Assembly (NCBI RefSeq): GCF_000172995.2
Contig: NC_014729.1
Location: forward strand, 2,730,001-2,762,000
Reading direction: 5' to 3'
Source: Halogeometricum borinquense DSM 11551
GTDB taxonomy: Archaea > Halobacteriota > Halobacteria > Halobacteriales > Haloferacaceae
Length of the DNA: 32,000 bases
Part shown: in pieces, positions 13,262-32,000 of the stretch
Layout of the letters: every line of letters starts with the position of its first letter
Position numbering within the stretch: position 1 is the stretch's first letter
Program-made: the position numbers and the translations under genes
The notes under the pieces: generated by a model
The model's database searches: none
The model's input: the letters and a program-made list of their open reading frames with translations, nothing else
Told to the model about the DNA's origin: nothing

Positions 13262-13414
13262 GCGGCGGCCGACCCGCCGCGCCGCAGTACGGACAGTCAC
13301 ATCCTTCGTATCGTCATCGCTCTGCATTGGCACATCTTCGCATATGTTTCCACAGAGTAGCAGAGACAAACACGACGATACAGTTTTTTGCGAGCGGCAA
13401 TCGTACGCTCGGCT

Positions 13415-13927: not shown

Positions 13928-14071
13928 TCGGGAAAAACGCGACCACCATCAGACAAAATAGCGGTCGGAACCCCACGCGTATTGTGGGCTGATCCCCACT
14001 GTCGGCGACGGTGCAACGTTTTACTGCATGATCCCGAATATAGAGCTATCAACGCCAAATGGTGATAGATA

Positions 14072-14530
14072 ATGACTGCCAAAGATAACGAGCCTATCGA
14101 GATCCTGTTAGTGGAAGACAACCCCGGTGACGTCCGATTAACCGAGAAGGGACTACAGAAAGGAAACGTGACCAACAATCTCCACGTGGTACCCAACGGC
14201 ATCGAGGCCCTGGAATTTCTCCGGCAAGAAAACGAGTACGCCGACGCACCTCGTCCCGACCTCATACTCCTCGATCTCGATATGCCCAAGATGGGCGGAA
14301 AGGAAGTACTTCGTGAAATCAAGACCGACTCGGATCTCAAGCGACTCCCAGTTGTCGTACTCTCGAGTTCGGACGCCGAGGAAGATATCGCCAAATCCTA
14401 CGACTTACACGCAAACGCGTACCTCACCAAACCCGTCGATTTCGAGGGATTTCTCGACATTGCCCAAAGTATCGAGGACTTCTGGTTCACAGCCGTCAAA
14501 TATCCACCGACAGAGGTTAAAAGGCAGTAA
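14072..14530 (+). CDS. Stand-alone response regulator (CheY-like receiver only)
   Basis: ILLVEDNPGD..., LILLDLDMPKMGG (phospho-acceptor Asp), VVVLSSS and ANAYLTKP (conserved Lys). There is no output domain. Confidence 0.9.
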   Translation: MTAKDNEPIEILLVEDNPGDVRLTEKGLQKGNVTNNLHVVPNGIEALEFLRQENEYADAPRPDLILLDLDMPKMGGKEVLREIKTDSDLKRLPVVVLSSSDAEEDIAKSYDLHANAYLTKPVDFEGFLDIAQSIEDFWFTAVKYPPTEVKRQ

Positions 14531-14744
14531 CTTGGAAGTCACCCGGACACCGAGACACGGTCATGTTTCACCAAAGCGGCTACCGGTAGCGTATCGGAAT
14601 CACACATTCAGTTATTCCGAAAATAAACCCAAATCCGGATACTGCACCATATAAGTCAATCTATCTAGAGCTAGCGACATGGTATTAAGTCTAACTCCCG
14701 AATAATTAACGGAGGTGTTCGGTAGGTAGTGCTACCAGATCAGA

Positions 14745-15728
14745 ATGAGCCCAGAAAATGCGCTGAAGGCACTGTTAGTAGAAGACAACCTGGGTGATGC
14801 GCGTCTCATTACACGCTATCTCGAGGAGAGTTCACTCCCAAGTGAAGCAAGCGAGTTGGAACTGACGCACGTCGAGACGCTGACTGCGGGCCTCGAACAC
14901 CTCGAAAAGAACACATATGATTTCGTACTGTTAGATCTCGGTCTCCCCGAAAGTACGGGACTTGAGACGCTCGACAGAGTACTCTCTCATTCGCCAGAAC
15001 TCCCCGTAGTCGTGCTGACGGGACTCAACAATCGTGAAATAGCGGTCGAGGCGATCATGCGAGGCGCACAGGACTATCTGCCGAAAGACGATATCGACAG
15101 CGCCCAACTACTGCGGTCGCTCCGGTACGCAATCGAGCGGAAAAAGCGCGAGGAGAAACTTGAGACGCTGAACCGCATCAATGCGCTGATTCGGGATATC
15201 AACAAGGCACTCCTCACGGCGACATCCCGTGCCGAAATCGAGCAGGCCGTCTGCGAACGGTTCATCGCAACTGATCCGTACCAGTTCGCGCTGGTAGGTG
15301 AGTTCTCTTCGGACTTCGAGGAGTTCACGAAGCGATACTGGGAGAGTGTCGACAAACGCGACCTTGAGACCGTACTAGAGGTCAAAGGCCAACTGCTCGG
15401 ACATCAACTGGCCGCAGAAGCCGTCCGGACGCGTGAAGTGCAGGTTATCCAAACCGTCGCTGAAGGGGCACTGTCCGAGGAGCAGAAAGACGAGATCGCT
15501 GAACACGAGGTCAAGGCCGTCGCTGCCATTCCGCTCGTGTTCGAGACCGTTCACGGCGTGCTCGTCGTCTACGCCGACCATCCGTACGCATTTGACGAGC
15601 AAGAACGCGAGGTGCTCGGGGAACTGGGCCAAACCATCGGATACGCTATCACCTCACTAGAGGCGCAAATGGAGCGAGTAGATCTCGATGACATGTTCCG
15701 AAGCGGCGACACGAACGAAGTAGACTGA
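14745..15728 (+). CDS. Response regulator with receiver domain plus GAF-like domain and no recognisable DNA-binding output
   Basis: ALLVEDNLGDARL, FVLLDLGLPES, VVVLTGL and DYLPKD form the receiver. A coiled linker follows, then a GAF-like region (...AVAAIPLVFETVHGVLVVYADHPYAFDEQEREVLGELGQTIGYAI). Confidence 0.85.
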   Translation: MSPENALKALLVEDNLGDARLITRYLEESSLPSEASELELTHVETLTAGLEHLEKNTYDFVLLDLGLPESTGLETLDRVLSHSPELPVVVLTGLNNREIAVEAIMRGAQDYLPKDDIDSAQLLRSLRYAIERKKREEKLETLNRINALIRDINKALLTATSRAEIEQAVCERFIATDPYQFALVGEFSSDFEEFTKRYWESVDKRDLETVLEVKGQLLGHQLAAEAVRTREVQVIQTVAEGALSEEQKDEIAEHEVKAVAAIPLVFETVHGVLVVYADHPYAFDEQEREVLGELGQTIGYAITSLEAQMERVDLDDMFRSGDTNEVD

Positions 15729-15798
15729 ACAATCCCCGAACCGACTGACTCCTGCTTTCTGTCCGTCCCGCACACAACGAGACAGCGATGTGAGCCAG

Positions 15799-16827
15799 TT
15801 AGAACTCGCCGCGCTGTTTCAACTCGTCTACGAGCGTTCGCACGTCCTGTGCGCGCTCTTTGGGGACGACCAACACGCGGTCGTCCCACGTGACGACCGC
15901 GAGGTCCGAAACACCCACCAGCGAGACGTGTTTGTCGTCGCCTGCGACGACATTGTCGGCCGCATCGAGTTCTCTGACCGTCACATCGCCGACCGAAACG
16001 GTCCCGTTCGCATTACCATCAACCACCCGGTCGAACGCGTCCCACGACCCCAAGTCGTCCCACTCGAACGGCGCGGGGACGACGACCGCGTCTTCGGTTC
16101 GTTCCATCACGCCGTAGTCGATGCTCACCTCGGCGACCCCGTCGAACGCGCGTTCGGGGTCCGTGCCGTCGGTGAGATCGGTGACGAGATCCGAGAGCGG
16201 AGAGTCGCGTGCCGCCGCGAGGAGGGCGTCGGGCGTCCACGCGAAGATACCTGCGTTCCAGTAATGACCGGCCTCGACGTACTCGTGGGCCGTCTCGGCG
16301 TCGGGTTTCTCGTGGAACGCCGAAACGGGCGCGTAATCGCCGCGGGACTCACCGGGTTCGATGTAGCCATAGCCCGTATCGGGGCGAGTCGGTTCGACAC
16401 CGAACGTGACGAGCGAACCCGTCTCGTCGGCGACGCGCGCACCGCGCCGCATCACCGCAGCAAAGGAATCGCCAACGGTGTGATCGCTGGGGAGAGCGAC
16501 GACGACGCAATCACCGACGGTCTCACGAATACGGTGTGTGGCGTAGACGAGCGCCGGACCGGTGTCCTTTGCGGCGGGTTCGACTACCACCTCGGCGTCG
16601 GGCGCGTGTTCGGAAATCTCGTCTGCGAACGCCGGGCGGGTCGAGACGAATACGTCGTCGGCCACGCCGCGGGCGCGCGACACCGTCCGGGAGAGGAGCG
16701 AATCGTCGCCGAGTAGCGAAAGGAACTGCTTGGGCCGGTCGGCACGACTCGCCGGGTAGAGTCGGGAGCCAGTGCCACCCGCGAGAACGAGCGCGACGAC
16801 CGGTCTGTCCGTCTGTCCCGCTACCAC
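15799..16827 (-). CDS. Sugar-phosphate nucleotidyltransferase (mannose-1-phosphate guanylyltransferase-like)
   Basis: VVALVLAGGTGSRLYPASRADRPKQFL is the G-x-G-T-R-L signature, with a WNAGIF motif further on. The start is uncertain: GTG 16827 (7-nt overlap with the upstream gene) or ATG 16863. The track start at 16953 is TTG and would overlap the neighbour heavily. Confidence 0.85.
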   Translation of the reverse strand: MVAGQTDRPVVALVLAGGTGSRLYPASRADRPKQFLSLLGDDSLLSRTVSRARGVADDVFVSTRPAFADEISEHAPDAEVVVEPAAKDTGPALVYATHRIRETVGDCVVVALPSDHTVGDSFAAVMRRGARVADETGSLVTFGVEPTRPDTGYGYIEPGESRGDYAPVSAFHEKPDAETAHEYVEAGHYWNAGIFAWTPDALLAAARDSPLSDLVTDLTDGTDPERAFDGVAEVSIDYGVMERTEDAVVVPAPFEWDDLGSWDAFDRVVDGNANGTVSVGDVTVRELDAADNVVAGDDKHVSLVGVSDLAVVTWDDRVLVVPKERAQDVRTLVDELKQRGEF

Positions 16828-17099
16828 GTCTCTACGACCCCGCTCAGAACGTCCTCGGCACATCCCTCGCAGTCGGGGTGACCAGCCTCGAAACACGCCG
16901 GGTGGCCCGTGGCAGCAACGGAGACAGCACGTCGTTCGGCGTGCCGACGGCAAACCAAACGGACGTTGCCGTCCTCATCTCGCGGGAGGTCGGCGTCGAA
17001 CTCACGTCTCCCGTCGTCGTACGCCTGTTTCGCGCGGGCGTACTGCCGACCGGCGGAGCGGAACTTCTCCCGTACGAACCGTTCGAGACGCTCGTCCAT
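16821..17099 (-). CDS. Small conserved Cys/His-containing protein, function unknown
   Basis: ATG start, acidic composition, and C-x3-H ... H-P-A-C-x5-H-P-D-C-x2-C. Co-directional with, and overlapping, the nucleotidyltransferase start. Confidence 0.55.
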   Translation of the reverse strand: MDERLERFVREKFRSAGRQYARAKQAYDDGRREFDADLPRDEDGNVRLVCRRHAERRAVSVAATGHPACFEAGHPDCEGCAEDVLSGVVETW

Positions 17100-17235
17100 C
17101 GTTACCCGGCGTTGGGAACGCCGGGGCTATAGGTTCGTTGGTGGGGAAAACAAGAGCATAGAGAGTGCCCGGATCTTGGGATAAGAGTCCTAATGCGCCC
17201 GATTTCAGTTCCAAAGCGTACACAAATTTATTAAC

Positions 17236-17268
17236 CATTGGGAGCCAACCGGCGTATGCCTCCCAATG
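17236..17268. promoter_or_regulatory. Perfect 9-bp inverted repeat (cattgggag-N15-ctcccaatg) just downstream of a TATA-like atttattaa (17226-17234)
   Basis: Read directly from the sequence. It lies between the putative TATA box and the rpa3-like start codon(s), so it is a candidate operator or 5' hairpin. Confidence 0.4.
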
Positions 17269-17295
17269 AAAACCAAGGTGGAGGCGAGTGAAACC

Positions 17296-18225
17296 ATGTC
17301 AGACCTGCGAACCCACGCAGCGGAGATTGCCGAGCAGTTTTCAGACCACTTGGACGTAGACGCCGACGACGTTGAGGAGCGACTGCAGAACCTCGTTGAC
17401 GAGTACCGGGTGCCCGTCGATGAGGCGCGTCGCTCCGTCGTCAACAGTTACCTCGACGAGGCCGACCTCGAACGCGACGAACTCGGTCGCGGCGGGAACG
17501 ACGAGGTCCACCTCGCAGACATCGACCAAGACGAGCAGTGGGTCGATATCACGGCGAAAGTCGTCGAACTGTGGGAGCCCCGAAGCGAGTCCATCTCGCA
17601 AGTGGGGCTTCTCGGTGACGAATCCGGCCGGATGAAGTTCGTCTCCTTCACGACTTCGGAGCTTCCGGAACTCGAGGAAGGGGCCGTCTACCGCCTCGGG
17701 AACGTCGTCACCGACGAATATCAGGGCAATTTCTCTGTCAAACTCAACCGGACGACCAGTATCGAAGAACTCGACGAGGAGATCGAAGTGGGCGACGACT
17801 CCACCACCGTCGAGGGCGCACTTGTGGACATTCAGTCCGGAAGCGGCCTCATCAAGCGGTGCCCCGAGGAGGGCTGTACGCGCGTGCTCCAGAACGGCCG
17901 CTGTAACGAGCACGGCAACGTCGAAGGCGAGTTCGACCTCCGCATCAAGGGCGTCTTAGACGACGGCGACAACGTACACGAGGTCATCTTCGGGCGCGAG
18001 ATGACCGAAGAACTCACCGGCATCTCCTTGGAAGAAGCCCAAGAGATGGCGATGGACGCACTCGACACTACCGTCGTCGTAGACGAGATGCGCACGGACC
18101 TCGTTGGCATGTATTACCGCGTCTCCGGCCCCGAACTGGGGCGGTACGTCCTTGCCGACGAGACCGACCGACTGAACGAACCGGCGGATGCCGAAGCAGT
18201 CCTCATCAAAGCGAGGTCGATCTAA
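17296..18225 (+). CDS. rpa3: Replication protein A-type ssDNA-binding protein (single OB fold plus zinc finger)
   Basis: MSDLRTHAAEIAEQFSDHLDV..., OB fold WVDITAKVVELWEP...GLLGDESGRMKFVSF, and zinc finger CPEEGCTRVLQNGRCNEHG. It is followed by a COG3390-type partner and no phosphoesterase gene, which is the rpa3-rpap3 arrangement in Haloferax nomenclature. An alternative ATG is at 17266. Confidence 0.88.
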   Translation: MSDLRTHAAEIAEQFSDHLDVDADDVEERLQNLVDEYRVPVDEARRSVVNSYLDEADLERDELGRGGNDEVHLADIDQDEQWVDITAKVVELWEPRSESISQVGLLGDESGRMKFVSFTTSELPELEEGAVYRLGNVVTDEYQGNFSVKLNRTTSIEELDEEIEVGDDSTTVEGALVDIQSGSGLIKRCPEEGCTRVLQNGRCNEHGNVEGEFDLRIKGVLDDGDNVHEVIFGREMTEELTGISLEEAQEMAMDALDTTVVVDEMRTDLVGMYYRVSGPELGRYVLADETDRLNEPADAEAVLIKARSI

Positions 18226-18864
18226 ATGAGTTCCAACGAAGTCCCAACCCGAGAGGTCGCCCGGCGAGTGTTCGCCGAAGAGTTCAACGACGCGAGTTAC
18301 ACGTTCAAAGAGTCTGAAGACGAACGCGCACCGGTCTATCTCCTCTTGCCGACGGGAGAGAAGGCCAACCGTATCTTCCTTGTCGGAACGCTCACCGAGA
18401 AGGACGACGTGGGCGAGGATAACGAGTACTGGCGGGGCCGTATCGTGGACCCGACGGGCACGTTCTTCGTCTACGCCGGCCAGTACCAACCCGAAGCCGC
18501 GAGCATGCTCCGCGACCTCGAACCACCCGCATACGTCGCCGTTGTCGGCAAACCGCGGACGTACGAGACGGACGACGGCAACGTGAACGTCTCCGTCCGG
18601 CCGGAGTCGATCAGCGTCGTAGACGCCGCGACGCGCGACCGCTGGGTAGTCGAGACGGCAGAGCGAACGCTCGAACGCATCGAGACGTTCGACAACGAAG
18701 GAAACGAGTACGCCCGCATGGCGCGCGAGGAGTACGAACTGCCGACCGACCGGTACCAGTCGGCCGCCGTCTCAGCGTTGCAGAGCTTAGATGAAACCGG
18801 CGACGACGAACTCGGCAGCGACGAACTCGGAGACGACACCGCGTCACCCGAACCCGACGCATAG
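18226..18864 (+). CDS. rpap3: RPA-associated protein (COG3390-type OB-fold partner)
   Basis: It starts 1 nt after the rpa3 stop. MSSNEVPTREVARRVFAEEFNDASYTFKESEDERAPVYLLLPTGEKANRIFLVGTLTE is the typical RPAP N-terminus. Confidence 0.85.
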   Translation: MSSNEVPTREVARRVFAEEFNDASYTFKESEDERAPVYLLLPTGEKANRIFLVGTLTEKDDVGEDNEYWRGRIVDPTGTFFVYAGQYQPEAASMLRDLEPPAYVAVVGKPRTYETDDGNVNVSVRPESISVVDAATRDRWVVETAERTLERIETFDNEGNEYARMAREEYELPTDRYQSAAVSALQSLDETGDDELGSDELGDDTASPEPDA

Positions 18865-18949
18865 CGAGACACCGACCCCGTCGGTCTCTTTCCATGCATA
18901 TGTCTGACGAAGCATTAAGTAGCCCCGGGTGACAACGTTCGGACGATTC

Positions 18950-19357
18950 ATGGGCAACAAGAACAAGACAATCTCGTTCCGCGTCAACGAAGACGCGTTC
19001 GAGACGCTTCGGGAGATTGCCGAGGAGCGAGATATTTCGCTGTCGGCCGTCTTCCGTGACTACGTGGACACCCTCGTTGCCCACGACGGTCAAGTCCAAG
19101 TCGTTCCGGAACACGAACTCGAACAGATGAACGGGAACGACGAGGAGTCGTTCCCGCCGAAGGTGAAGGTTCCAAAGAGCTTCATCCGGGAACACGAGCG
19201 TCTCGAACTCGAAGCGGATCATCTCCGTGAGCAACTTGAAGAGCACAAACGCTACGTCAACTACCTCCGCGAGCAACTCGAAGACGAAGAAGAGGAAGTT
19301 ATCCAACTGGAAGACTTGGACGCCGACGCAGACGAGCCCTCGTTCCGACTCGGGTAG
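18950..19357 (+). CDS. Ribbon-helix-helix (CopG-like) protein with an acidic coiled-coil C-terminus
   Basis: ATG at 18950. NKTISFRVNEDAFETLREIAEERDISLSAVFRDYV follows the RHH beta-alpha-alpha pattern. Confidence 0.7.
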   Translation: MGNKNKTISFRVNEDAFETLREIAEERDISLSAVFRDYVDTLVAHDGQVQVVPEHELEQMNGNDEESFPPKVKVPKSFIREHERLELEADHLREQLEEHKRYVNYLREQLEDEEEEVIQLEDLDADADEPSFRLG

Positions 19358-19415
19358 GCCGTTCTGACTGTTCTTCGGCGTTCTCGTCTGTCTCGTCAGT
19401 CTCGCCGCCGTGTCG

Positions 19416-19871
19416 CTACCCGGTGAGCGCCCGCCGTGCCTTGCGGGCTTTCTCAGCCATCTCCTCGTCGCCTTCGACATCTGAAAGCGTCTCGACGGCT
19501 TCCAGCGTTCGCACCGCGTCGTCGAGAAACGAGAGTACGTCGCCGGGATAGGCGTACAGCATGTACTCGTCGCCCATCACGTCAACGATGGCATCCGGTC
19601 CTAACCCCTGTGCGCGGAGTTCAAGGAGATACGTCACGAACTGGCGCTCTGGATAGCCAGTGTATAGGTCGTCAGGGTCCTCCGGATCGAGGAAATCCTG
19701 CGCGAAGTCCAGCAGTCTGTCGCGGGTTGCAGAATCGACTTTCGAGAGACCCTCGCCGGAGTAGAGCACGTCCATCGTCGCACCCTTGAACGCACCCTTG
19801 GGGATGTTCACGTCCAACTGCGAGACGATTTCGCGGTGGTTCTTGAGGTATATCTTGTCCGTGATCGCCAC
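19416..19871 (-). CDS. Conserved acidic hypothetical protein
   Basis: GTG start, 151 aa, halophile-type acidic composition, no competing ORF. I do not recognise a family. Confidence 0.6.
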   Translation of the reverse strand: MAITDKIYLKNHREIVSQLDVNIPKGAFKGATMDVLYSGEGLSKVDSATRDRLLDFAQDFLDPEDPDDLYTGYPERQFVTYLLELRAQGLGPDAIVDVMGDEYMLYAYPGDVLSFLDDAVRTLEAVETLSDVEGDEEMAEKARKARRALTG

Positions 19872-19961
19872 TGTTCGTCCGAAGGTCCGCTCTACGGCGT
19901 CAAAAGCTTCCCGCTCTCACGGAACGCCGAAATCGGGTCTGAAAGACGACTCTCGTCCGTA

Positions 19962-20486
19962 TCAAACATCCGCAGACTCTGCGCCGTCATCCGAGAGTTC
20001 ACACTCGTCTCCGTGACAGTTGGCGGCCTTTCGGACATCGTCGAAGTCCGGTTCGGCGTCGGCGGCATCGCCGCGCCACGCAAACTGAATCGTTCGGTCA
20101 GGGTCGATGACGAACAGCGCCATACCCGGGACGTTGCGGTGGCCCTCGAAGTCCGACTCCCGAACGCCGTACGCTTCCGCAACTCGGCCGTCAGAATCGG
20201 TGAGAAGCGGGAACTCGATGTTGTACGTCCGTGCGAACTCCTGATGGGCGTAGACGCTGTCGCCGCCGATACCGAGGACGACAGTGTCATCGAGGAGCGT
20301 GAGCCAGTCGGCGTCTCGAAGCGTACACCACTGTGAGATACACGCCGGATGGAAGTCGAACGGATAGAACACGAGGATAACGCTCCACCCGCGTTCGACG
20401 TACTCCGAGAGCGTGTGCTCGTCCATGTCGTCACCCGCGGCACCGGGAAGGGAGAACGCCGGGGCCTGCTGTCCAAGTTGTAGCAT
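19962..20486 (-). CDS. Peroxiredoxin (AhpC/TSA-Bcp family)
   Basis: MLQLGQQAPAFSLPG...VILVFYPFDFHPACISQW contains the peroxidatic Cys in an xxPxC-type context. An extra C-x4-C lies in the C-terminal tail. Confidence 0.88.
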   Translation of the reverse strand: MLQLGQQAPAFSLPGAAGDDMDEHTLSEYVERGWSVILVFYPFDFHPACISQWCTLRDADWLTLLDDTVVLGIGGDSVYAHQEFARTYNIEFPLLTDSDGRVAEAYGVRESDFEGHRNVPGMALFVIDPDRTIQFAWRGDAADAEPDFDDVRKAANCHGDECELSDDGAESADV

Positions 20487-20620
20487 ACAATACCTACGGG
20501 GAGCGAACGAATCAAGTCAACTCGGCCGTGTGTGAGCGTCGCACGCCTACGAAACCGGAGTCGTAACGCTTTTTGACTGCACACGACTCAGAAACTATTG
20601 CAGTAGTACGCGACCACTGT

Positions 20621-20694
20621 GTCCGGGTTAGGGTAGTGGACTATCCTTCAGCCTTGTGGAGGCTGAGACGCGGGTTCAATTCTCGCACCCGGAC
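20621..20694 (+). tRNA. tRNA-His (anticodon GTG)
   Basis: Cloverleaf folded by hand. Acceptor TCCGGGT/ACCCGGA with an encoded G-1 opposite discriminator C73 (the tRNA-His hallmark). Anticodon arm CAGCC-TTGTGGA-GGCTG and T arm GCGGG-TTCAATT-CTCGC. Confidence 0.9.
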
Positions 20695-21062
20695 CTTTCT
20701 ATCTGCGAACAACGTGAGCAGACGAACGTCTGTCGTGTGAGATTGAACCAGCGAGCAACTGACTGAAACGAGGTTGTGAGTAAGGGTCAAGGCTCGTACT
20801 CAGACCTTCTCGCAGAACACGGTTCCTCACGAGCGTTCGCTCCGTTAAGAGCAGTACGAGTGAACGACGACGCGGCAAGGGAACAAATCGCCCGTATACT
20901 TGCCTAACACGGCCGCTATGTCGGGTATCAACGATAGTCACGATGAGTATAGTACTGCCAACTAGCAGAGGCTATATGTATATACAGTAATTGTTAGTCA
21001 ATAACACACATAGACACTGCTGTCGAAACACGTGCCAAAGGCACGGTGGGGGCACACAGCAG

Positions 21063-21221
21063 ATGAAGATACCAACAAATCCGAACGACGACTCGGCAGT
21101 AAAACCAGCGTATCAGTACATCGAGTACGAATCAGGCGATAACACGGTCGCCGTCATTCAGGACTGCGAAAACGAGAGCGCGTGGGTACAATCCACCATC
21201 TCGGAACCCGTCACACAGTGA
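21063..21221 (+). CDS. Small acidic protein (52 aa), function unknown
   Basis: ATG at 21063 (MKIPTNPNDDSAVKPAYQYIEYESGDNTVAVIQDCENESAWVQSTISEPVTQ). The composition is halophile-like. The track start at 20991 is TTG and lies in AT-rich sequence. Confidence 0.45.
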   Translation: MKIPTNPNDDSAVKPAYQYIEYESGDNTVAVIQDCENESAWVQSTISEPVTQ

Positions 21222-21287
21222 GTTACGGGATTTCGATGGGGCCGCGAGTTCAGATCCGAGGGTGGTCCGGTGCGGCGTCGAATCGAC

Positions 21288-21500
21288 CTACTCGGAACCC
21301 GAGCGATTGCGGTAGACCGAACGCGTTACGACGGGGGCTTCAGGGTACTTCCGACAGTACTCCTCGCGCGTCGTTACCGAACCGGTGCAGTCGCGGCCGG
21401 TCAAGTGAGGGTCTTTGACCGACTCGACCAAACAACCGCACTCGCGGCAGGCGACGTAGTGAACGTCAGCGATTCGGTTGGGAGGAGGCGAGTCCTGCAT
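21288..21500 (-). CDS. Small Cys-rich (zinc-finger-like) protein, 70 aa
   Basis: ATG start. Four to five Cys residues: C-x2-C-x1-C ... C ... C (VACRECGCLVES...GRDCTGS...EEYCRKY). Convergent with the 52-aa gene. Confidence 0.45.
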   Translation of the reverse strand: MQDSPPPNRIADVHYVACRECGCLVESVKDPHLTGRDCTGSVTTREEYCRKYPEAPVVTRSVYRNRSGSE

Positions 21501-21649
21501 CGGCGGCGTATTCGTGATGGAAGAACTTAATTACGAATGCGATACCTCAGTTCAGTGAGTTCTTACGACGGGATTACACTGCGTCGGCAGGGAGGTAGTC
21601 GTTACGTTCCCGCGGTATCGCTTTCCGTCCGGCACGCATACGGCGGGCC

Positions 21650-22399
21650 ATGAACGTCGCCATCGTGACCGTCGGCAACGAACTACTCGCAGGCGACATC
21701 GAGAACACGAACGCGACGTGGTTAGCGCGGGAACTGACCGAACGAGGCGTAAAAGTCGCTCGCGTCATCACCATCCCCGACGAGGAGACGACTATTGCCG
21801 AAACGGTGGGAGAGTGGTCGATGTCGTTCGACGCCGTCGTCGTCACCGGCGGTCTCGGCGGAACACCGGACGACCTGACGATGCCAGGTGTCGCCGCCGG
21901 ACTCGACCGTGAGTTGGCGGTTGACCCCGTCGCCGCAGCGGACGTAGAGGCGACCATCGACCGGATTCTCGAACGGAAACCGGACATCGAGTTCGATCTG
22001 AAAGTCGAGTGGTACGCATCGATGCCCGCGGGCGCGACGCCGATTCCGAATCCCGAAGGCCTCGCACCGGGATGTGTCGCCGAGAACGTCTACGTCCTCC
22101 CAGGAATTCCAGAGGAGATGCGCGCTGTCTTCGACAACGTGGCTGACGACTTCGGCGGGACCGTGGCGACGACGACGTTCTACACACCCGAGCCGGAGGG
22201 TGCGATGGCAGAACCGCTCGCTACCGTGGCAACAGAGTTCGGCGTCCGCGTCGGGAGTTATCCAAACCGGAACGGAGCACGGACGCGGGTCAAACTCACT
22301 GCGACCGACGCGGCGGTACTCGATGAAGCATCATCGTGGTTAGTCGAGAACGCCGGCGTCGAGTTGACCGAAACCGACGGGAAGAAAACTGACGGATGA
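21650..22399 (+). CDS. CinA-like / molybdopterin-binding (MoCF_BD) domain protein
   Basis: MNVAIVTVGNELLAGDIENTNATWLARELTERGVKV...VVVTGGLGGTPDD...VYVLPGIPEEM is the CinA N-terminal domain pattern. Confidence 0.85.
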   Translation: MNVAIVTVGNELLAGDIENTNATWLARELTERGVKVARVITIPDEETTIAETVGEWSMSFDAVVVTGGLGGTPDDLTMPGVAAGLDRELAVDPVAAADVEATIDRILERKPDIEFDLKVEWYASMPAGATPIPNPEGLAPGCVAENVYVLPGIPEEMRAVFDNVADDFGGTVATTTFYTPEPEGAMAEPLATVATEFGVRVGSYPNRNGARTRVKLTATDAAVLDEASSWLVENAGVELTETDGKKTDG

Positions 22400-28392: not shown

Positions 28393-28465
28393 GGGACCGT
28401 GGGTTAGCCTGGTATACTTCGGGCCTTGGGTGCCCGTGACCCCGGTTCAAATCCGGGCGGTCCCA
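28393..28465 (+). tRNA. tRNA-Pro (anticodon TGG)
   Basis: Folded by hand. Acceptor GGGACCG/CGGTCCC plus discriminator A, anticodon arm CGGGC-CTTGGGT-GCCCG, and T arm CCCGG-TTCAAAT-CCGGG. Confidence 0.9.
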
Positions 28466-28470
28466 TCGAG

Positions 28471-28479
28471 TATATAAAA
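28471..28479 (+). promoter_or_regulatory. TATA-like box (tatataaaa) upstream of the three-gene operon
   Basis: It lies 6 nt after the tRNA-Pro end and about 45 nt upstream of GTG 28524. An 8-bp-stem hairpin (aaagaacc-N13-ggttcttt, 28477-28505) lies in between. Confidence 0.3.
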
Positions 28480-28523
28480 GAACCAGCGTATTCTGCCGGT
28501 TCTTTCTCACCCTCTCAGCGGAG

Positions 28524-29000
28524 GTGCTGCGCGTGAGCCTCGCGCCATCCAAGCGCGGGGGAAACGCCGCTGAATCCGCCGTTCACCAACTTGTTGACGG
28601 CCTCCGATACGTTCCGGACTCGGAAGCCGAACACTACGACGCCGAAGTTGTCGAACTCCTTTCACCGAGTGCTGACCTTCCGTTCGTCGGCATCTGTCTC
28701 CTCGAGGTCGGCGTCGCTGTCGAAATCAAGAGCGCCATGGCCGTCTACGGCCAAGCCCAGCGCCGCGGCCGCTTCCTCATCCGCCAATCCCAACACGAGC
28801 ACCTGCTCGACGTCGGTGGCGTCTATCTCTTCGCCGTCTGCGAGCCCACGCCAGCGCGCGACGTCATCTCGATGAAGGTCGTTCCCGCGAGCCTCGTCGA
28901 TGAACTCGAGTTCTCGTGGGTCGGCCGCGACACCCGCGCACCGTACGCGCAGTTCGCCTGGAGTCGCATCTTTGTCCCCGAGGAGGTCGAAGAGCGATGA
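28524..29000 (+). CDS. PD-(D/E)xK-like nuclease-fold protein (Hjc/restriction-endonuclease-like), hypothetical
   Basis: GTG start. SKRGGNAAESAVHQLV (G...E helix), then SADLPFVG (Asp), then VAVEIKS (E-x-K), then RFLIRQSQHEHL. The order and spacing fit the PD-(D/E)xK core. The assignment rests on motifs only. Confidence 0.55.
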   Translation: MLRVSLAPSKRGGNAAESAVHQLVDGLRYVPDSEAEHYDAEVVELLSPSADLPFVGICLLEVGVAVEIKSAMAVYGQAQRRGRFLIRQSQHEHLLDVGGVYLFAVCEPTPARDVISMKVVPASLVDELEFSWVGRDTRAPYAQFAWSRIFVPEEVEER

Positions 29001-29557
29001 TACGCGAGACCTACTTCTCCGCCCTCTCGAACCGAGACATCGTTCCCGGAGACAGTGCGAAGGTCTTCGCGGTCGTCTCAGATCTTCCCGAGTGGGCCGA
29101 GGAACTCGTTGATCGCAATATCCCCGCTCTCGCGCCGCCCGAGGACCTCCTCGAGGCCCGCTCGCGTATCGAAGACGCCGCCAAGCAGAACGACGAGGAC
29201 GATCCCGAGGCTGTCGCGTGGCGCTCTGTCGATTTCGAGGAGCGCTACCGCGCCCACGTCACGTCCGGTGGACGACACCAAGTCCTCGATTCCCTCGCTG
29301 AAACCGTCGAACAGCGAACAGTGTGGCTCGTCTCTTGGCGCGCACGCGCCAGTCTCGACCATCGGTCTATCGTCTTGGAAGAACTCCAACATCGGGCCGA
29401 TCTCGGACCATGTCCACCCCGTGATCACGAATGGGGCCGTGGCGTCGTTCCGACCGTCGTCGTCTGCCAACGCTGCGGCTACGGTTCGACGAGTCTCTCT
29501 ACCGGGCAGCTCGCCCAAGAGAATCTGAAACCGTACCTCGGAGGTGACGGACAGTGA
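28997..29557 (+). CDS. DUF488-like protein with a C-terminal Cys/His knuckle, hypothetical
   Basis: The ATG overlaps the upstream stop (ATGA). LAPPEDLLEAR...VDFEERYRAHV...VLDSLAETVEQRTVWLVS...DHRSIVLEEL resembles the DUF488 pattern (LAPS.eL...w.eF...Y..el...L..L...tLlC...ChR..la..L) with the usual Cys replaced. The tail is CPPRDH-x14-CQRC. Confidence 0.45.
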   Translation: MIRETYFSALSNRDIVPGDSAKVFAVVSDLPEWAEELVDRNIPALAPPEDLLEARSRIEDAAKQNDEDDPEAVAWRSVDFEERYRAHVTSGGRHQVLDSLAETVEQRTVWLVSWRARASLDHRSIVLEELQHRADLGPCPPRDHEWGRGVVPTVVVCQRCGYGSTSLSTGQLAQENLKPYLGGDGQ

Positions 29558-31689
29558 CCGAGGATGTCGATCCGTTCGACGCCCTCGAGGAGGCCGAAGC
29601 CGTCACCTCCGACGACCAAGACCCTGTCACCAACACCGTCGAGAACACGAAAGCCGACCGACTACGCGCGAGTGCCGGCACCGACGGTGCCGACCTCGAG
29701 TCCGATACCGACGGACGATCCAAAGACCCGCTCTCGAAGTTCGTCGCCGAGTGTCGATGGTGCCGCGTCGGATTCGAGAGCAAAGAAGCCGCGCACGCAC
29801 ACGAGGACTGCTCGAAAGAACCCGTCTCAGTCTGTCGCTTCTGTGGTGAAGAACACACTCCGCGCGATGATCCGGAAGACCACCTCTACGGGTGCGACGA
29901 ATACCAGCGCTACCGAGAGAAGCAGATTCGGAACTCGCGGGCCGGAACGATGCGTGGCGGTGACGGGCTCGGTATCCGCCAGTTCATCGACGGACAACCG
30001 CACGAGTTCTCCGCGTACCTCAAGTACGACAACGCGCTGAGTACGTACTTCGGTCTCGTCTCCCTGTACAAAATGCACGATTTCGAGGAGTACGGCCAAC
30101 TTCGCGCTGGCCTCGAATTCGACGACAAGGACTGGAACCTCGAATTCGGCTACAAATCGTGCGGCCTCGCACCACCGGACGACGATACTGACCTCGGGCG
30201 ATGGGACTGGCGTCTCGACGATCCGCTCGAATTCCGGATCTACGTCTACCCCAGCGCGTACGATAGTTACCAAGACGCGAAAGACGAGAACCGCCAACGC
30301 GTCTACTACCGCGTCTCTCCCCGGTGGTCCGACATGGAGTCGGTAAACGGGAAGTCATTCTCGAACCCGCACGATCTCCTGGGCGTAGACATCGAAGTTG
30401 ATGGAAGCTACTTCGAGTTCGATCAGTACGCCGACGTCCTCTACCAAGCACTCGACGTCCTTCGAGATCGGCAACAAGAGTTCGGATGGAATTCCTACAC
30501 TGCTATCGACGCAGACGCGTGCCATCCCGAGGAGACTCACGAGTCCTCGAACGTCATCGACGCGGAGTACTACGTGCGCGTGAAGAAAGAACTCACCGGG
30601 AAGGTCTACGCGTTCGACGGGACGCTTCACCGTATTTCGATGCTTCTCGGCCGCGAGCGCAGCGGCTACTCGAAGACAGTCCGTGACGACCGGAAGTGCG
30701 AAGGGCACTATCACACGGCCACAATAGGCGCGATGCGCGCGGCCGCGTTGGTCGGCGGTCACGAACTCCCGAAGGAGTTCAAGCACTACCACGTCAAGGA
30801 ACCCGACGCTGTCGAAGGAACGGTTCTCGAGAACCCGAAAATGGGCGTGTCCTTCCAGCACGGCCTCTATGATGACACGCTGTACTGGGACGATCTCGAC
30901 CGGCTGAAGCGAGAACTTGACGAGGGACTGTTGAACCTGCTTCAGTGGTCAGACCTGCCGATTACTCCGGACCACCAAGTGTTCGTGGCGGATGATTACT
31001 TCGCCGTAGAGGGCAGTCGGCGGTTCCGGAAGGTGATCGATGATCCGCTTCCGCGGATTGCTCAGCAGCAGGACGAAGAAGTGCGGCGCTTCGCTGTCGC
31101 TGGGAATCTCACGGAGACCGACGTCAACCTCGTTGATGAACTCCTGACTGACGGGGGGCACATCTCGCCTGCCGATCTCGCCGAACGGATCGGCGTCCAC
31201 ATCAACACCTGCTACAAGTCGCTGAAGCGACTGGGGAACATCGTCCAGCATGATTACGGGTCGGTCGAACTCGCCTCGAAGCACATCGCGCAGGGAGTCG
31301 TCGAACATATCGACTCCGCGCGGTCTGTCGTCGAGAACACGCTCGAGGAAGCGGCCGACGATCTCGTGCGTGCAGAGACGTTCGGTGACGATGATCCGTG
31401 GAGCCGGTGGCTCGATCACTACGTCGAAGACGTTGAAGAGGGAGCGGGAAGCGGGAACCGCGACGTTCTGGAGTTCGGGTGGAAGCCGAGTGACCGACAC
31501 GACGCGAAGCGACTCATCCGCGCGGGCGCGATGAAGTGGGCGGAAGTCGCGGGTGAGGATATGCCGCGATTTGCGAGGGAGTTTGAGGTTGAAATGACGC
31601 TCGCGGATAACTCACGGTTCAACCTCGACTGGAGAGCCTTGAAGAAACTCCTGCCACGGAACTACTCGCTGACGCCGTCGCACGGCTGA
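29554..31689 (+). CDS. Large (711 aa) acidic protein with two N-terminal zinc-finger-like motifs, a central domain of unknown function and a C-terminal wHTH; possible replication/recombination or defence effector protein
   Basis: The GTG overlaps the upstream stop (GTGA). The zinc-finger-like motifs are CRWC-x11-HAH and CRFC-x13-H-x3-C (29752-29895). The wHTH is ETDVNLVDELLTDGGHISPADLAERIGVHINTCYKSLKRLGNIVQHDYGSVEL (about 31111-31278). No Walker A motif is seen. Confidence 0.7.
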   Translation: MTEDVDPFDALEEAEAVTSDDQDPVTNTVENTKADRLRASAGTDGADLESDTDGRSKDPLSKFVAECRWCRVGFESKEAAHAHEDCSKEPVSVCRFCGEEHTPRDDPEDHLYGCDEYQRYREKQIRNSRAGTMRGGDGLGIRQFIDGQPHEFSAYLKYDNALSTYFGLVSLYKMHDFEEYGQLRAGLEFDDKDWNLEFGYKSCGLAPPDDDTDLGRWDWRLDDPLEFRIYVYPSAYDSYQDAKDENRQRVYYRVSPRWSDMESVNGKSFSNPHDLLGVDIEVDGSYFEFDQYADVLYQALDVLRDRQQEFGWNSYTAIDADACHPEETHESSNVIDAEYYVRVKKELTGKVYAFDGTLHRISMLLGRERSGYSKTVRDDRKCEGHYHTATIGAMRAAALVGGHELPKEFKHYHVKEPDAVEGTVLENPKMGVSFQHGLYDDTLYWDDLDRLKRELDEGLLNLLQWSDLPITPDHQVFVADDYFAVEGSRRFRKVIDDPLPRIAQQQDEEVRRFAVAGNLTETDVNLVDELLTDGGHISPADLAERIGVHINTCYKSLKRLGNIVQHDYGSVELASKHIAQGVVEHIDSARSVVENTLEEAADDLVRAETFGDDDPWSRWLDHYVEDVEEGAGSGNRDVLEFGWKPSDRHDAKRLIRAGAMKWAEVAGEDMPRFAREFEVEMTLADNSRFNLDWRALKKLLPRNYSLTPSHG

Positions 31690-31859
31690 GGCGGGGCCTC
31701 GTGAGTGGCAACACTATTCGTCGCCTGTTTTTGCGGTAATCATTTCTGCTTTTCTGCCGGTTCTGGTACTTGGCTGGAGGTTCTTGATCGGCATCGTCAT
31801 CGAGGCCGACGAGCGACTGCCTTCGAAACTGGCGGGGGTACCCCACTTGTCCGTTAGGG

Positions 31860-31879
31860 GTGTCGGTAAAGACCGACAC
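31860..31879. other. Perfect 8-bp-stem hairpin (gtgtcggt-aaag-accgacac)
   Basis: Read directly from the sequence. Nearby are the 10-bp palindrome ggggtacccc (31835-31844) and a second 8-bp-stem hairpin gccgcgcc-tactc-ggcgcggc (31941-31961). Confidence 0.5.
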
Positions 31880-32000
31880 GGACAGATTACCTCAGCCTTC
31901 GCTTCGCTCAGGCTTCAGATGAAACAGACGAAGCATGGTCGCCGCGCCTACTCGGCGCGGCTTGGCGCGTATTAGATGTAGTGTGAGCCGCCGTTTCCTT

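What the first reader, a model, noticed from the sequence alone, without database searches (positions are those of the whole stretch)
29554..31689. The 711-aa protein has an unusual architecture, with possible HUH-like and DxD motifs in its unassigned core
From the sequence: an acidic N-terminal tail; two adjacent C2H2/C2HC-like fingers (C67-x2-C70-x10-H81-x-H83 and C94-x2-C97-x3-H101...H110-x3-C114); and a C-terminal wHTH (about aa 520-575).

The central region contains GVDIEVDG (a D-x-E-x-D acidic cluster, aa 277-284) and two His-Tyr-His triads 26 residues apart (GHYHTAT at aa 384-390 and KHYHVKE at aa 410-416). H-hydrophobic-H triads are the metal-binding signature of HUH relaxase/Rep nucleases, and acidic D-x-D clusters are typical of primase-polymerases.

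Either identity would make this the replication or mobilisation protein of an integrated element. There is no P-loop. This is pattern-spotting only, and the motifs are short.
Basis: inference. Interest (0 to 1): 0.5.

Follow-up and report, generated by a model that had tools for sequence, protein, structure and literature searches.

The report
Known archaeal rolling-circle replication protein
The 711-aa protein is the replication initiator (Rep-Arvir/DUF7845 family, described in 2026) of a virus-like element integrated at a tRNA-Pro gene; it is not an HUH nuclease or a primase, and this exact protein is already listed in the paper that defined the family.

Summary
The ORF and all the motifs exist at the stated coordinates. 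However, the "unassigned core" (aa 144-486) is a full-length match to Pfam DUF7845 (E=2e-102). Wang et al. 2026 (NAR, PMC13107129) showed this is the catalytic domain of Rep-Arvir rolling-circle replication initiators, which are TBP-like and distantly related to Rep_trans.

The protein is 30% identical to the mutagenised RepSNJ2 and 64% identical to the Rep of Haloferax lemon-shaped virus LSV-48N. The second "HYH" triad is the catalytic KHY motif, and its central Tyr (Y412 = SNJ2 Y283) is invariant in 65/65 relatives. In each triad only one His is conserved. The D-x-E-x-D cluster is not conserved. No HUH or primase-polymerase fold or family is matched.

Directly downstream lies the expected origin: motif 1, a palindrome, and a nick-site hairpin with compensatory changes. 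Upstream, tRNA-Pro forms attL, and two co-oriented genes are syntenic with LSV-48N.

This exact protein (E4NLY6/WP_013440709.1, Halogeometricum borinquense DSM 11551) is row 361 of the paper's supplementary table.

Only two points are not discussed there:
- the tandem C2HC zinc fingers, which are specific to this clade;
- SNJ2's essential E303, which is Gly in 61/65 relatives.

The parts
28393..28465 (+). tRNA-Pro(TGG). Its 3' end is the attL junction of the integrated element.
   Evidence: Found by ARAGORN and Rfam. The tRNA 3' end GGTTCAAATCCGGGCGGTCCCA and the sequence that follows match the attP region of LSV-48N, L068:~4050-4140. In 17/22 related loci a same-strand tRNA lies just upstream of rep.
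28472..28479 (+). TATA-like box (TATATAAA) just inside attL. It is followed by a small imperfect hairpin (GAACCAGC...GCCGGTTC, about 28483-28505). This may be the element's own promoter or leader for the three-gene operon.
   Evidence: Seen directly in the sequence. The same element is found in LSV-48N and the Hfx. mucosum locus L009; H. limi L004 keeps the hairpin but has TTAAAAG. Promoter function is inferred and was not tested.
28533..29000 (+). First operon gene, 155 aa (158 aa if it starts at the GTG at 28524). It is a PDDEXK_16-family protein.
   Evidence: It is 46% identical (E=4e-45) to the 158-aa LSV-48N protein that sits at the same position after the integrase and attP. PF25941 is precomputed on the identical gene in L001 and L070. 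My own Pfam scan gave no hit.
28997..29557 (+). Second operon gene, 186 aa. It is DUF488-N3a-like (borderline) and has a C-terminal CxxC. Its start overlaps the stop of the gene before it, and its stop overlaps the rep start.
   Evidence: It is 50% identical (E=4e-62) to the 185-aa LSV-48N protein. The Pfam DUF488-N3a hit is E=6e-6 at 26.9 bits against a cut-off of 27.
29554..31689 (+). The rep gene: a 711-aa Rep-Arvir family initiator (E4NLY6 / WP_013440709.1).
29746..29895 (+). Two tandem C2HC zinc-finger-like units (aa 65-86 and 92-114), preceded by an acidic disordered tail (aa 1-60). This module is specific to the LSV-48N-like clade.
   Evidence: The ligands C67, C70, H83, C86 and C94, C97, H110, C114 are >=90% conserved within the clade and are absent (gaps) from about 35-40 of 65 family members. 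The model shows beta-beta-alpha twice, with pLDDT about 64-80. Pfam gives only sub-threshold zf-BED and zf-C2H2 hits. In 1.84 billion representatives, the module is found almost only at Rep-Arvir N-termini, plus classical C2H2 arrays.
29983..31011 (+). DUF7845 catalytic domain (aa 144-486).
   Evidence: Pfam PF25227, E=2e-102, covering 1-315/315. The AF2 core model has pTM 0.80. BLASTP against RepSNJ2 gives 30% identity, E=2e-66.
30787..30789 (+). Codon of Y412, the predicted catalytic tyrosine within K410-H411-Y412.
   Evidence: It aligns with SNJ2 Y283 of the KHYYM motif and is invariant in 65/65 relatives. In SNJ2, Y283A and Y283F are lethal for replication (PMC13107129).
31108..31278 (+). 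MarR-like winged helix-turn-helix (aa 519-575), including the D533-G534-G535 linker.
   Evidence: Supported by sub-threshold Pfam HTH hits and by Foldseek MarR-family hits with prob 1.0. The DGG linker aligns with SNJ2 D408-G409-G410, of which G410A is lethal, and is conserved in 64-65 of 65 relatives.
31279..31686 (+). C-terminal alpha/beta domain of unknown function (aa 576-711).
   Evidence: It aligns with RepSNJ2 up to aa 687 and has no Pfam hit. The paper also found no match for this domain.
31703..31717 (+). Conserved motif 1, GAGTGGCAACACTAT, immediately after the rep stop codon.
   Evidence: It lies within a 21-nt stretch identical to SNJ2 and is present in essentially all related loci. 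The paper places this motif near the operon's transcription termination site.
31835..31844 (.). Palindrome GGGGTACCCC, the putative double-stranded Rep-binding inverted repeat.
   Evidence: It sits at the position of the variable IR upstream of the hairpin, as in SNJ2 and LSV-48N (GGGGGGACCCCCC). As the paper reports, it is not conserved column by column (52% paired).
31851..31879 (+). CCGTTAG followed by the putative nick-site hairpin GTGTCGG-TAAAGA-CCGACAC.
   Evidence: It is homologous to the essential SNJ2 hairpin (nt 176-197 after the stop codon), including the loop AA that is invariant in 26/26 loci. Changing these (A191T/A192T) is lethal in SNJ2. The stem is 82% paired. The two innermost pairs change on both sides in 6 and 7 of 26 loci. 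No shuffle out of 500 reaches the observed covariation, and slid registers score lower.
31894..31961 (+). Two further conserved hairpins (31894-31914 and the GC-rich 31941-31961) flanking a conserved CAGATGAAACAG. This is the end of the rep-ori cassette.
   Evidence: The GC-rich hairpin is 90% paired, and one of its pairs changes on both sides in 7 sequences. The window and the sister strain CP050274 are 96.7% identical up to 31964 and diverge immediately afterwards. The function of these hairpins was not tested.

Best explanation
**What it is.** The ORF encodes the replication initiator of an integrated LSV-48N-like viral element whose left end (attL) lies in tRNA-Pro. The protein belongs to the Rep-Arvir family (Pfam DUF7845).

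**Proposed mechanism.** This is inferred by homology to RepSNJ2 and, more distantly, to Rep_trans/pT181-type initiators.
1. After the element excises and circularises, the wHTH binds the double-stranded palindrome about 150 nt downstream of rep. In this clade the N-terminal C2HC fingers may contribute to binding.
2. The DUF7845 domain cleaves the loop of the adjacent extruded hairpin (GTGTCGG-TAAAGA-CCGACAC). Y412 acts as the nucleophile and becomes covalently linked to the DNA. A metal ion is held by conserved acidic residues: E151, D336, and probably others among E226, E338 and E408.
3. The free 3'-OH primes rolling-circle synthesis.

**What is shown and what is inferred.**
- Shown here: family membership, residue conservation, ori homology with covariation, and attL synteny with LSV-48N.
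- Shown elsewhere, for SNJ2 only: the genetic requirement for rep, Y283 and the hairpin, and the existence of ssDNA intermediates.
- Inferred: nicking chemistry, the roles of the domains, and activity of this particular copy.
For: **Family membership**
- Pfam DUF7845 is matched end to end, at 343 bits against a cut-off of 27.
- BLASTP against RepSNJ2 gives E=2e-66 over aa 135-687. E25, D207, Y283 and G410 of SNJ2 align with E151, D336, Y412 and G535 here.
- All four of those residues are conserved in 63-65 of 65 relatives.
- tblastn gives 64% identity to the Rep of LSV-48N.

**Origin of replication**
- The downstream DNA carries SNJ2's motif 1, an IR, and the nick hairpin with its invariant loop AA and compensatory stem changes.

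**Genomic context**
- The tRNA-Pro junction is homologous to LSV-48N attP, and the two upstream genes are syntenic with LSV-48N.
- A same-strand tRNA lies upstream of rep in 17/22 related loci.
- The sister strain carries LSV-48N virion-module homologues downstream.

**Structure**
- Foldseek finds MarR-type wHTH hits, one strong viral homologue (E=1e-13), several giant-virus proteins, and a weak hit to the Rep_trans initiator 4CIJ. This is the pattern the paper reports.

**Literature**
- The SNJ2 genetics and the family definition are in PMC13107129.
- This exact protein is listed there as row 361, classified as an integrative element.
Against: - No nicking or covalent-adduct biochemistry has been published, even for RepSNJ2. 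The paper itself says 'putative' endonucleases.
- My own fold evidence for Rep_trans kinship is weak:
  - 4CIJ scores E=0.036, prob 0.60 with the full-length model, and E=0.21, prob 0.16 with the core-only model;
  - the segment around Y412 is modelled with low confidence.
- SNJ2's essential E303 aligns with Gly431 here and is Gly in 61/65 relatives. The published metal-binding triad therefore does not transfer directly.
- The integrase and attR are outside the window and were not found within 10 kb in the sister strain. Whether the element is complete is unknown.
- The sister strain's copy of the 904-aa virion-module gene appears fragmented, so the element may be a decaying remnant whose Rep is no longer used.
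- LSV-48N and SNJ2 also encode Orc1/Cdc6- or DnaA-like proteins. The division of labour in replicating a roughly 25-kb dsDNA genome is unresolved.
Confidence: 0.85

Rival explanations
1. It is an HUH-superfamily Rep or relaxase. The two His-Tyr-His triads would bind the metal, and a separate downstream Tyr would cleave the DNA.
For: Two H-x-H triads do exist at aa 385-387 and 411-413. Thermococcal plasmid members of this family were once assigned to the HUH superfamily (PMC13107129).
Against: - Only one His per triad is conserved: H385 is Tyr in 49/65 and H413 is Tyr in 37/65.
- SNJ2 itself has D-Y-V at the position of the first triad.
- In SNJ2, H282A (= H411) has no phenotype, whereas the central Tyr is essential.
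- No HUH Pfam family is hit at E<=1.
- No HUH structure appears in three Foldseek top-50 lists.
Confidence: 0.02
2. It is an archaeo-eukaryotic primase-polymerase (AEP), with the D279-x-E281-x-D283 cluster acting as the catalytic DxD motif.
For: The acidic cluster is present on a predicted beta-strand.
Against: - D279 is Asn in 41/65 relatives.
- E281 and D283 are replaced by R, K or Q in most relatives.
- No AEP or primase family or fold is matched.
Confidence: 0.01
3. It is only a transcriptional regulator with no nuclease activity. Public annotations call relatives Lrp/AsnC-family or wHTH regulators, and the LSV-48N homologue is annotated as a 'transcriptional regulator'.
For: A wHTH is present. 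Several database names say Lrp/AsnC.
Against: - The HTH covers only about 45 of 711 residues and scores below Pfam's cut-offs (24.1 against 27, and 21.8 against 21.9).
- There is no AsnC/RAM ligand-binding domain.
- The 343-residue DUF7845 domain, with its invariant Tyr and acidic residues, dominates the protein.
- In SNJ2, the homologue plus its downstream DNA suffice for autonomous replication.
- An additional autoregulatory role is not excluded.
Confidence: 0.05
4. It is an intact gene sitting in a decayed, immobile remnant. The Rep and ori would be relics that no longer replicate anything in this strain.
For: - The paper classifies this locus as an integrative element, not a provirus.
- The sister strain's homologue of the LSV-48N 904-aa protein is split into three pieces.
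- No attR or integrase lies within reach.
- The two strains differ immediately after the ori.
Against: - The ORF is full length and every family-invariant residue is retained.
- The ori elements are intact.
- The three genes keep overlapping start and stop codons.
- This rival concerns current activity, not identity, so it is compatible with the best explanation.
Confidence: 0.3

Closest known systems
RepSNJ2 (ORF19, YP_010772542) of betapleolipovirus SNJ2, the founding member of the Rep-Arvir family (Wang et al. 2026, NAR, PMC13107129)
   Same: - The domain order is the same: DUF7845 catalytic domain, then a MarR-like wHTH, then a C-terminal alpha/beta domain.
- The K-H-Y catalytic motif is shared (Y283 = Y412), as are E25 = E151, D207 = D336 and the DGG linker.
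- The origin downstream of the stop codon has the same layout: motif 1, an IR, and a hairpin with a TAA loop.
- Rep sits at the tRNA-proximal end of the integrated element.
   Different: - The two proteins are only 30% identical.
- This protein has an extra N-terminal region of about 140 aa, made of an acidic tail and two C2HC fingers, which SNJ2 lacks.
- The motif is KHYHV here and KHYYM in SNJ2.
- SNJ2's essential E303 is Gly431 here.
- The first 'HYH' is D-Y-V in SNJ2.
- A TATA-like box lies just inside attL here, whereas the SNJ2 operon is transcribed from within the integrase gene.
The 711-aa 'transcriptional regulator' WWZ16984.1 of Haloferax lemon-shaped virus LSV-48N (PP151251; PMC12714723)
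   Same: - It has the same length and is 64% identical over aa 60-680.
- It has the same N-terminal zinc-finger region.
- The upstream genes (158 aa and 185 aa) are the same, as is the attP/attL sequence in tRNA-Pro.
- The downstream ori and hairpins are the same.
   Different: - LSV-48N has a DNA methyltransferase gene between the 185-aa gene and rep. The window does not.
- LSV-48N targets tRNA-Pro(GGG) in Haloferax, whereas here the target is tRNA-Pro(TGG) in Halogeometricum.
- Whether the rest of the LSV-48N genome is present here cannot be seen from the window.
Rep_trans family initiators (PF02486): RepD/RepDE of pC221 (PDB 4CWC), RepSTK1 (4CIJ) and the pT181-type bipartite origins
   Same: - The proposed chemistry is the same: a tyrosine nucleophile plus acidic metal ligands on a TBP-like sheet.
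- The origin logic is the same: a double-stranded IR binding site beside a nicked hairpin.
- 4CIJ is the only nuclease among my Foldseek hits.
   Different: - There is no detectable sequence similarity; Pfam Rep_trans is not hit.
- The motif is KHY rather than YxxK.
- This protein has an added wHTH, a C-terminal domain and zinc fingers.
- The family is archaeal only.
- My fold matches are not significant.
HUH Rep proteins of alphapleolipoviruses (PF07232) and RepB of pMV158/pLS1 (PF01719)
   Same: They have the same biological role, as rolling-circle initiators of small archaeal or bacterial replicons, and they use a tyrosine nucleophile.
   Different: The fold is different, and no conserved HUH metal-binding motif is present here.

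Membership tests
Rep-Arvir (Pfam PF25227 / DUF7845) | A DUF7845 domain scoring above the Pfam gathering score | tested here: met
   343.3 bits against a cut-off of 27, E=2e-102, covering profile positions 1-315 of 315 at aa 144-486.
Rep-Arvir (Pfam PF25227 / DUF7845) | An absolutely conserved catalytic tyrosine (SNJ2 Y283) | tested here: met
   Y412 aligns with Y283 and is present in 65/65 relatives, as are K410 and H411.
Rep-Arvir (Pfam PF25227 / DUF7845) | Acidic residues equivalent to SNJ2 E25, D207 and E303 (the proposed metal ligands) | tested here: inconclusive
   E151 (63/65) and D336 (65/65) are present. The E303 position is Gly431 here and Gly in 61/65 relatives, so E303 is not a family feature. 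E226, E338 and E408 are further near-invariant acidic residues.
Rep-Arvir (Pfam PF25227 / DUF7845) | A central MarR-like wHTH following the catalytic domain | tested here: met
   The wHTH spans aa 519-575. Pfam HTH hits are just sub-threshold, Foldseek MarR hits have prob 1.0, and the DGG linker is conserved.
Rep-Arvir (Pfam PF25227 / DUF7845) | A cognate origin downstream of rep, consisting of an IR and a conserved hairpin | tested here: met
   The elements lie at window 31703-31717, 31835-31844 and 31851-31879. They are homologous to SNJ2 and LSV-48N and show covariation.
Rep-Arvir (Pfam PF25227 / DUF7845) | Residence on a mobile element (virus, plasmid, or integrative element) | tested here: met
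   attL lies at tRNA-Pro with homology to LSV-48N attP, and the accessory genes are syntenic. The paper lists the locus as an integrative element. The integrase and attR are outside the window.
Rep-Arvir (Pfam PF25227 / DUF7845) | Site-specific nicking with a covalent Tyr-DNA intermediate, and rolling-circle replication | not testable with these tools
   This needs biochemistry or genetics. Only genetic and ssDNA-intermediate evidence exists, and only for SNJ2.
HUH endonuclease superfamily | A conserved His-hydrophobic-His metal-binding motif | tested here: not met
   H385 is Tyr in 49/65 and H413 is Tyr in 37/65. The central residues are invariant Tyr, and one of them is the catalytic residue.
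HUH endonuclease superfamily | The HUH fold, or a match to an HUH Pfam family (Rep_1, Rep_2, Viral_Rep, relaxase, Y1_Tnp and others) | tested here: not met
   There is no such Pfam hit at E<=1 and no HUH structure among the Foldseek hits.
Archaeo-eukaryotic primase (AEP / primase-polymerase) | A conserved catalytic DxD (DxE) motif on the AEP fold | tested here: not met
   D279 is Asn in 41/65 relatives, and E281 and D283 are variable. No AEP family or fold is hit.
Rep_trans (PF02486) | A sequence match to PF02486, including motif III (YxxK) | tested here: not met
   There is no Pfam hit, and the motif is K-H-Y-H-V. The paper also states that the relationship is not recognisable at the sequence level.
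Rep_trans (PF02486) | Fold similarity to RepD/RepSTK1 | tested here: inconclusive
   4CIJ scores E=0.036, prob 0.60, TM(target) 0.32 with the full-length model, and E=0.21, prob 0.16, TM 0.25/0.31 with the core-only model. The paper reports a TM-align score of 0.49 to 4CWC for SNJ2.
Lrp/AsnC transcriptional regulators (the name used in some databases) | An HTH_AsnC-type domain plus an AsnC_trans_reg (RAM) ligand-binding domain | tested here: not met
   HTH_AsnC scores 24.1 bits, below its cut-off of 27. There is no RAM domain hit. The NCBIfam Lrp hit is 13 bits against a cut-off of 233.
Classical C2H2-type zinc fingers | C-x2-4-C-x12-H-x3-5-H spacing, a beta-beta-alpha fold, and a Pfam zf-C2H2 match | tested here: inconclusive
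   The spacing is C-x2-C-x12-H-x2/3-C, with the last ligand Cys instead of His. Two beta-beta-alpha units are predicted at moderate pLDDT. Pfam hits are sub-threshold only (E 0.065-0.27). phmmer cross-hits bona fide C2H2 arrays. Zinc binding was not tested.

The most novel reading that the evidence does not exclude
Two details are not covered by the published description.

1. The LSV-48N-like clade of Rep-Arvir has acquired an N-terminal pair of C2HC zinc fingers with classical spacing, preceded by an acidic disordered tail. The module is absent from the characterised betapleolipovirus Reps, and in 1.84 billion protein representatives it is found almost nowhere else. It could be an extra origin-recognition or ssDNA-handling module that sets replicon specificity.

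2. The residue reported as an essential metal ligand in SNJ2 (E303) is Gly in 61 of 65 relatives. The family's true metal site is therefore more likely built from E151 and D336 together with one or more of the untested near-invariant residues E226, E338 and E408. By strand periodicity, E408 lies on the same face as Y412; this is an inference.
Probability: 0.35. Interest if true: 0.35.

Novelty: already known. Interest (0 to 1): 0.22.

Why it matters
The practical value lies in annotation. This gene and its relatives are still named "hypothetical", "DUF7845" or "Lrp/AsnC transcriptional regulator" in public records. They can instead be read as the rolling-circle initiator of an LSV-48N-like integrated element, together with a precisely placed origin and an attL in tRNA-Pro.

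The result extends LSV-48N-like elements from Haloferax, where the LSV-48N paper found them, to Halogeometricum and other genera.

It also gives two testable refinements of the Rep-Arvir model: the role of the clade-specific zinc fingers, and the identity of the metal ligands, given that SNJ2 E303 is not conserved.

It does not open a new question. The family, its mechanism and this very protein are in a 2026 paper.

Tried and rejected
**Searches that led nowhere**
- Exact-sequence contig look-ups for the window protein, P0070 and P0002 found nothing.
I therefore could not read the DSM 11551 chromosome beyond position 32000 and used the sister strain CP050274 instead.
- A sequence search of the PDB gave nothing meaningful; the best E-value was 0.79.
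- The core-only AF2 model searched against the PDB gave no significant hit, so I cannot independently confirm the Rep_trans relationship. No model coordinates were available to measure active-site distances.
- A Pfam scan of the zinc-finger region, the 155-aa ORF and the C-terminal domain gave only sub-threshold hits or none.
- A search for attR, i.e. a repeat of the tRNA-Pro 3' end allowing up to 2 mismatches, found only the tRNA itself in both the window and L070.

**Hypotheses considered and rejected**
- HUH and AEP identities were rejected on motif conservation and on family and fold searches.
- The 'Lrp/AsnC regulator' label was rejected because the HTH hit is sub-threshold and there is no RAM domain.
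- I inferred from memory that the top BFVD hit, A5Y2C5 (528 aa), is PAV1 ORF528. I could not verify this, so it is not used as evidence.

Full report
**1. The observation**

The ORF at 29554..31689 (+) is real. It has a GTG start, encodes 711 aa, and its start overlaps the stop of the preceding ORF. There is no P-loop.

The window is about 60% GC and the protein is 20% D+E, which is typical of haloarchaea. The source is Halogeometricum borinquense DSM 11551. The identical protein is ADQ68436.1 / WP_013440709.1 / UniProt E4NLY6.

**2. The core is not unassigned**

Residues 144-486 match Pfam PF25227 (DUF7845) over the whole model, at 343 bits and E=2e-102. A wHTH follows at aa 519-560, scoring just below the Pfam cut-offs.

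A full-text search for DUF7845 found Wang et al. 2026 (NAR 54:gkag363, PMC13107129). That paper shows the following.
- ORF19 of the betapleolipovirus SNJ2 (RepSNJ2) plus about 210 bp of downstream DNA suffices for autonomous replication.
- Y283 of a KHYYM motif is essential: Y283A and Y283F are lethal, while K281A, H282A, Y284A and M285A are neutral.
- E25A, E303A and G410A (in the wHTH) are lethal, and D207A is nearly neutral.
- A downstream IR and a conserved hairpin are required.
- ssDNA intermediates occur.
- The modelled DUF7845 domain has a TBP-like fold that superposes on the Rep_trans initiator RepDE (4CWC) with a TM-score of 0.49.

The authors name the family Rep-Arvir. They also note that thermococcal plasmid members had earlier been mistaken for HUH Reps.

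**3. Mapping onto this protein**

BLASTP against RepSNJ2 gives 30% identity and E=2e-66 over aa 135-687. The SNJ2 residues map as follows.

| SNJ2 residue | Residue here |
|---|---|
| E25 | E151 |
| D207 | D336 |
| Y283 | Y412 |
| D408-G409-G410 | D533-G534-G535 |

I extracted 64 further family members from related loci and viruses and aligned them with the window protein. The counts out of 65 are below.

| Position | Conservation |
|---|---|
| K410, H411, Y412 | 65/65 |
| E408 | 65/65 |
| Y386 | 65/65 |
| H387 | 63/65 |
| D336 | 65/65 |
| E338 | 63/65 |
| E226 | 64/65 |
| H150, E151 | 63/65 |
| H385 | Tyr in 49 |
| H413 | Tyr in 37 |
| D279 | Asn in 41 |
| E281, D283 | variable |

The second "HYH" triad is therefore the family's catalytic K-H-Y motif, with the tyrosine as the key residue. 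Neither triad is an HUH motif, and the acidic cluster is not a DxD motif.

**4. Fold**

The full-length AF2 model, built on a 42-sequence alignment, has mean pLDDT 72. Residues 145-345 score 85-96, and residues 350-430 score about 50-70.

- Foldseek against the PDB gave MarR-family wHTH hits with prob 1.0. For the core it gave only a weak hit to the Rep_trans rolling-circle initiator 4CIJ: E=0.036, prob 0.60, 338 columns.
- Against BFVD it gave one strong full-length hit (A5Y2C5, E=1e-13), giant-virus proteins, and several small A0A345... proteins. Those accessions belong to the same series as the Inoviridae Rep_trans protein cited in the paper.
- A core-only model (pTM 0.80) gave no significant PDB hit. 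4CIJ recurred at E=0.21 with the highest query-normalised TM-score in the list, 0.25.

No HUH or AEP structure appeared in any list. My structural evidence is therefore compatible with the published Rep_trans relationship but does not establish it. The identification rests on homology to RepSNJ2.

**5. The origin is present and intact**

- Immediately after the stop codon, the window has 21 nt identical to SNJ2 (cctcgtgagtggcaacactat). Its core, GAG(T/A)GGCA(A/T)CACTAT, is found after the stop codon in essentially every related locus.
- About 145 nt downstream of the stop codon lies a palindrome, GGGGTACCCC (31835-31844).
- Then come CCGTTAG and the hairpin GTGTCGG-TAAAGA-CCGACAC (31860-31879).

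On a 26-locus alignment, the hairpin is 82% paired. Its two innermost pairs change on both sides in 6 and 7 sequences: LSV-48N has GGC/GCC, H. limi has GAG/CTC, and the window has CGG/CCG. No shuffle out of 500 reaches the observed covariation, and all slid registers score lower.

The loop AA (window 31868-31869) is invariant. It corresponds to SNJ2 A191 and A192, whose mutation abolishes replication.

Two further conserved hairpins follow, at 31894-31914 and 31941-31961. The window and the sister strain CP050274 are 96.7% identical up to 31964 and diverge immediately afterwards. This marks the end of a discrete rep-ori cassette.

**6. Context**

- tRNA-Pro(TGG) lies at 28393-28465.
- It is followed, on the same strand, by a 155/158-aa PDDEXK_16 gene, a 186-aa DUF488-N3a-like gene, and rep. 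Their start and stop codons overlap.
- The closest virus is the Haloferax lemon-shaped virus LSV-48N. Its 711-aa "transcriptional regulator" is 64% identical.
- The LSV-48N gene order is integrase, attP, 158 aa, 185 aa, methyltransferase, rep, ori.
- The two small proteins are 46% and 50% identical to those in the window.
- LSV-48N attP contains a tRNA-Pro 3'-end-like segment followed by GGGTATATAAAC. This matches the window's tRNA 3' end followed by GAGTATATAAAAG.
- In 17 of 22 related loci a same-strand tRNA lies just upstream of rep. This is the attL geometry described for SNJ2.
- In the sister strain, homologues of LSV-48N virion-module genes lie 3-7 kb downstream on the opposite strand. 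These are the 904-aa protein, in three fragments, and two small neighbouring genes.
- attR and the integrase are out of reach.

The window therefore carries the left end of an LSV-48N-related integrated element. Whether the element is complete is unknown.

**7. What is and is not new**

The supplementary table of the NAR paper lists WP_013440709.1 / E4NLY6 (H. borinquense DSM 11551) as entry 361, classed as an integrative element, and includes it in the alignment. The identification is therefore already published.

Two details are not discussed there.

a. The N-terminal region of about 140 aa.
   - It consists of an acidic disordered tail and two fingers, C67-x2-C70-x12-H83-x2-C86 and C94-x2-C97-x12-H110-x3-C114.
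   - It is conserved within the LSV-48N-like clade and absent from the pleolipovirus-type Reps.
   - The model shows two beta-beta-alpha units.
   - Pfam gives only sub-threshold hits.
   - It is found almost only on these Reps among 1.84 billion representatives.

b. SNJ2's essential E303.
   - It aligns, without indels between the KHY and PK..Q anchors, to Gly in 61/65 relatives, including this protein.
   - The published metal triad therefore cannot be general.
   - E226, E338 and E408 are untested near-invariant candidates.
   - By strand alternation, E408, K410 and Y412 share one face of their strand. This is an inference, because no coordinates were available.

**8. Verdict**

Novelty is "already known". 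Interest is low. The modest residual value lies in corrected annotation and in the two refinements above.

Noticed in passing
window 30844-30846 (codon of G431); SNJ2 L069 ORF19 residue E303: In SNJ2 the E303A mutation abolishes replication, and E303 was proposed as a metal ligand. That position is Gly in 61 of 65 family members; Glu occurs only in SNJ2 and L026. The near-invariant acidic residues E226, E338 and E408 were not tested in the paper.
   Followed up: partly
window 31962-32000 compared with L070 12409-12450: H. borinquense DSM 11551 and strain CP050274 are 96.7% identical from the chromosomal flank through rep and ori. They diverge abruptly right after the third hairpin. This suggests that different cargo is joined to the same rep-ori cassette, with a recombination boundary at the cassette's end.
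   Followed up: partly
window ~31594 (end of draft contig AOHT01000005.1, L001): The draft assembly of the same strain breaks inside the rep gene, about 95 nt before the stop codon. The break may be caused by a repeated rep/ori-like sequence elsewhere in the genome.
   Followed up: no
window 28466-28532; L068 4072-4135; L004 9932-10000; L009 9821-9890: The segment just inside attL is conserved among the closest elements. It consists of a TATA-like box, a small imperfect hairpin (GAACCAGC...GCCGGTTC) and a purine-rich stretch before the first GTG. It could be the element's own promoter or leader, or an integrase arm site. In SNJ2, by contrast, the operon's transcription start site is inside the integrase gene.
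   Followed up: partly
L004 (Halogeometricum limi) 9859-12139: The same tRNA-Pro(TGG) is the target, but rep starts about 70 nt after the tRNA, without the PDDEXK_16 and DUF488-like genes. LSV-48N, conversely, has an extra methyltransferase gene before rep. The accessory genes between attL and rep are therefore modular.
   Followed up: no
L070 16191-19169 (minus strand): The homologue of the LSV-48N 904-aa virion-module protein matches in three separate tblastn pieces, and no gene was called across the region. The element in the sister strain may be decaying.
   Followed up: no
L002 (Haloferax volcanii strain, CP191799) 12422-22133: In this roughly 8-kb island, rep is followed by DUF7964, DUF3644 and DUF4365 genes, a DDE transposase fragment and a short (203-aa) phage-integrase ORF. 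A type I-B-like cas6/cas8 cluster starts immediately beyond. The island appears to carry possible defence-type cargo instead of virion genes.
   Followed up: no
window 28997-29557: The 186-aa operon protein scores 26.9 bits against DUF488-N3a, whose cut-off is 27. It ends with a Cys-rich segment (PCPP...CQRCGYGS) that is conserved in LSV-48N. In SNJ2, every ORF of the rep operon is required for replication, so this protein and the PDDEXK_16 protein may be replication accessory factors.
   Followed up: no
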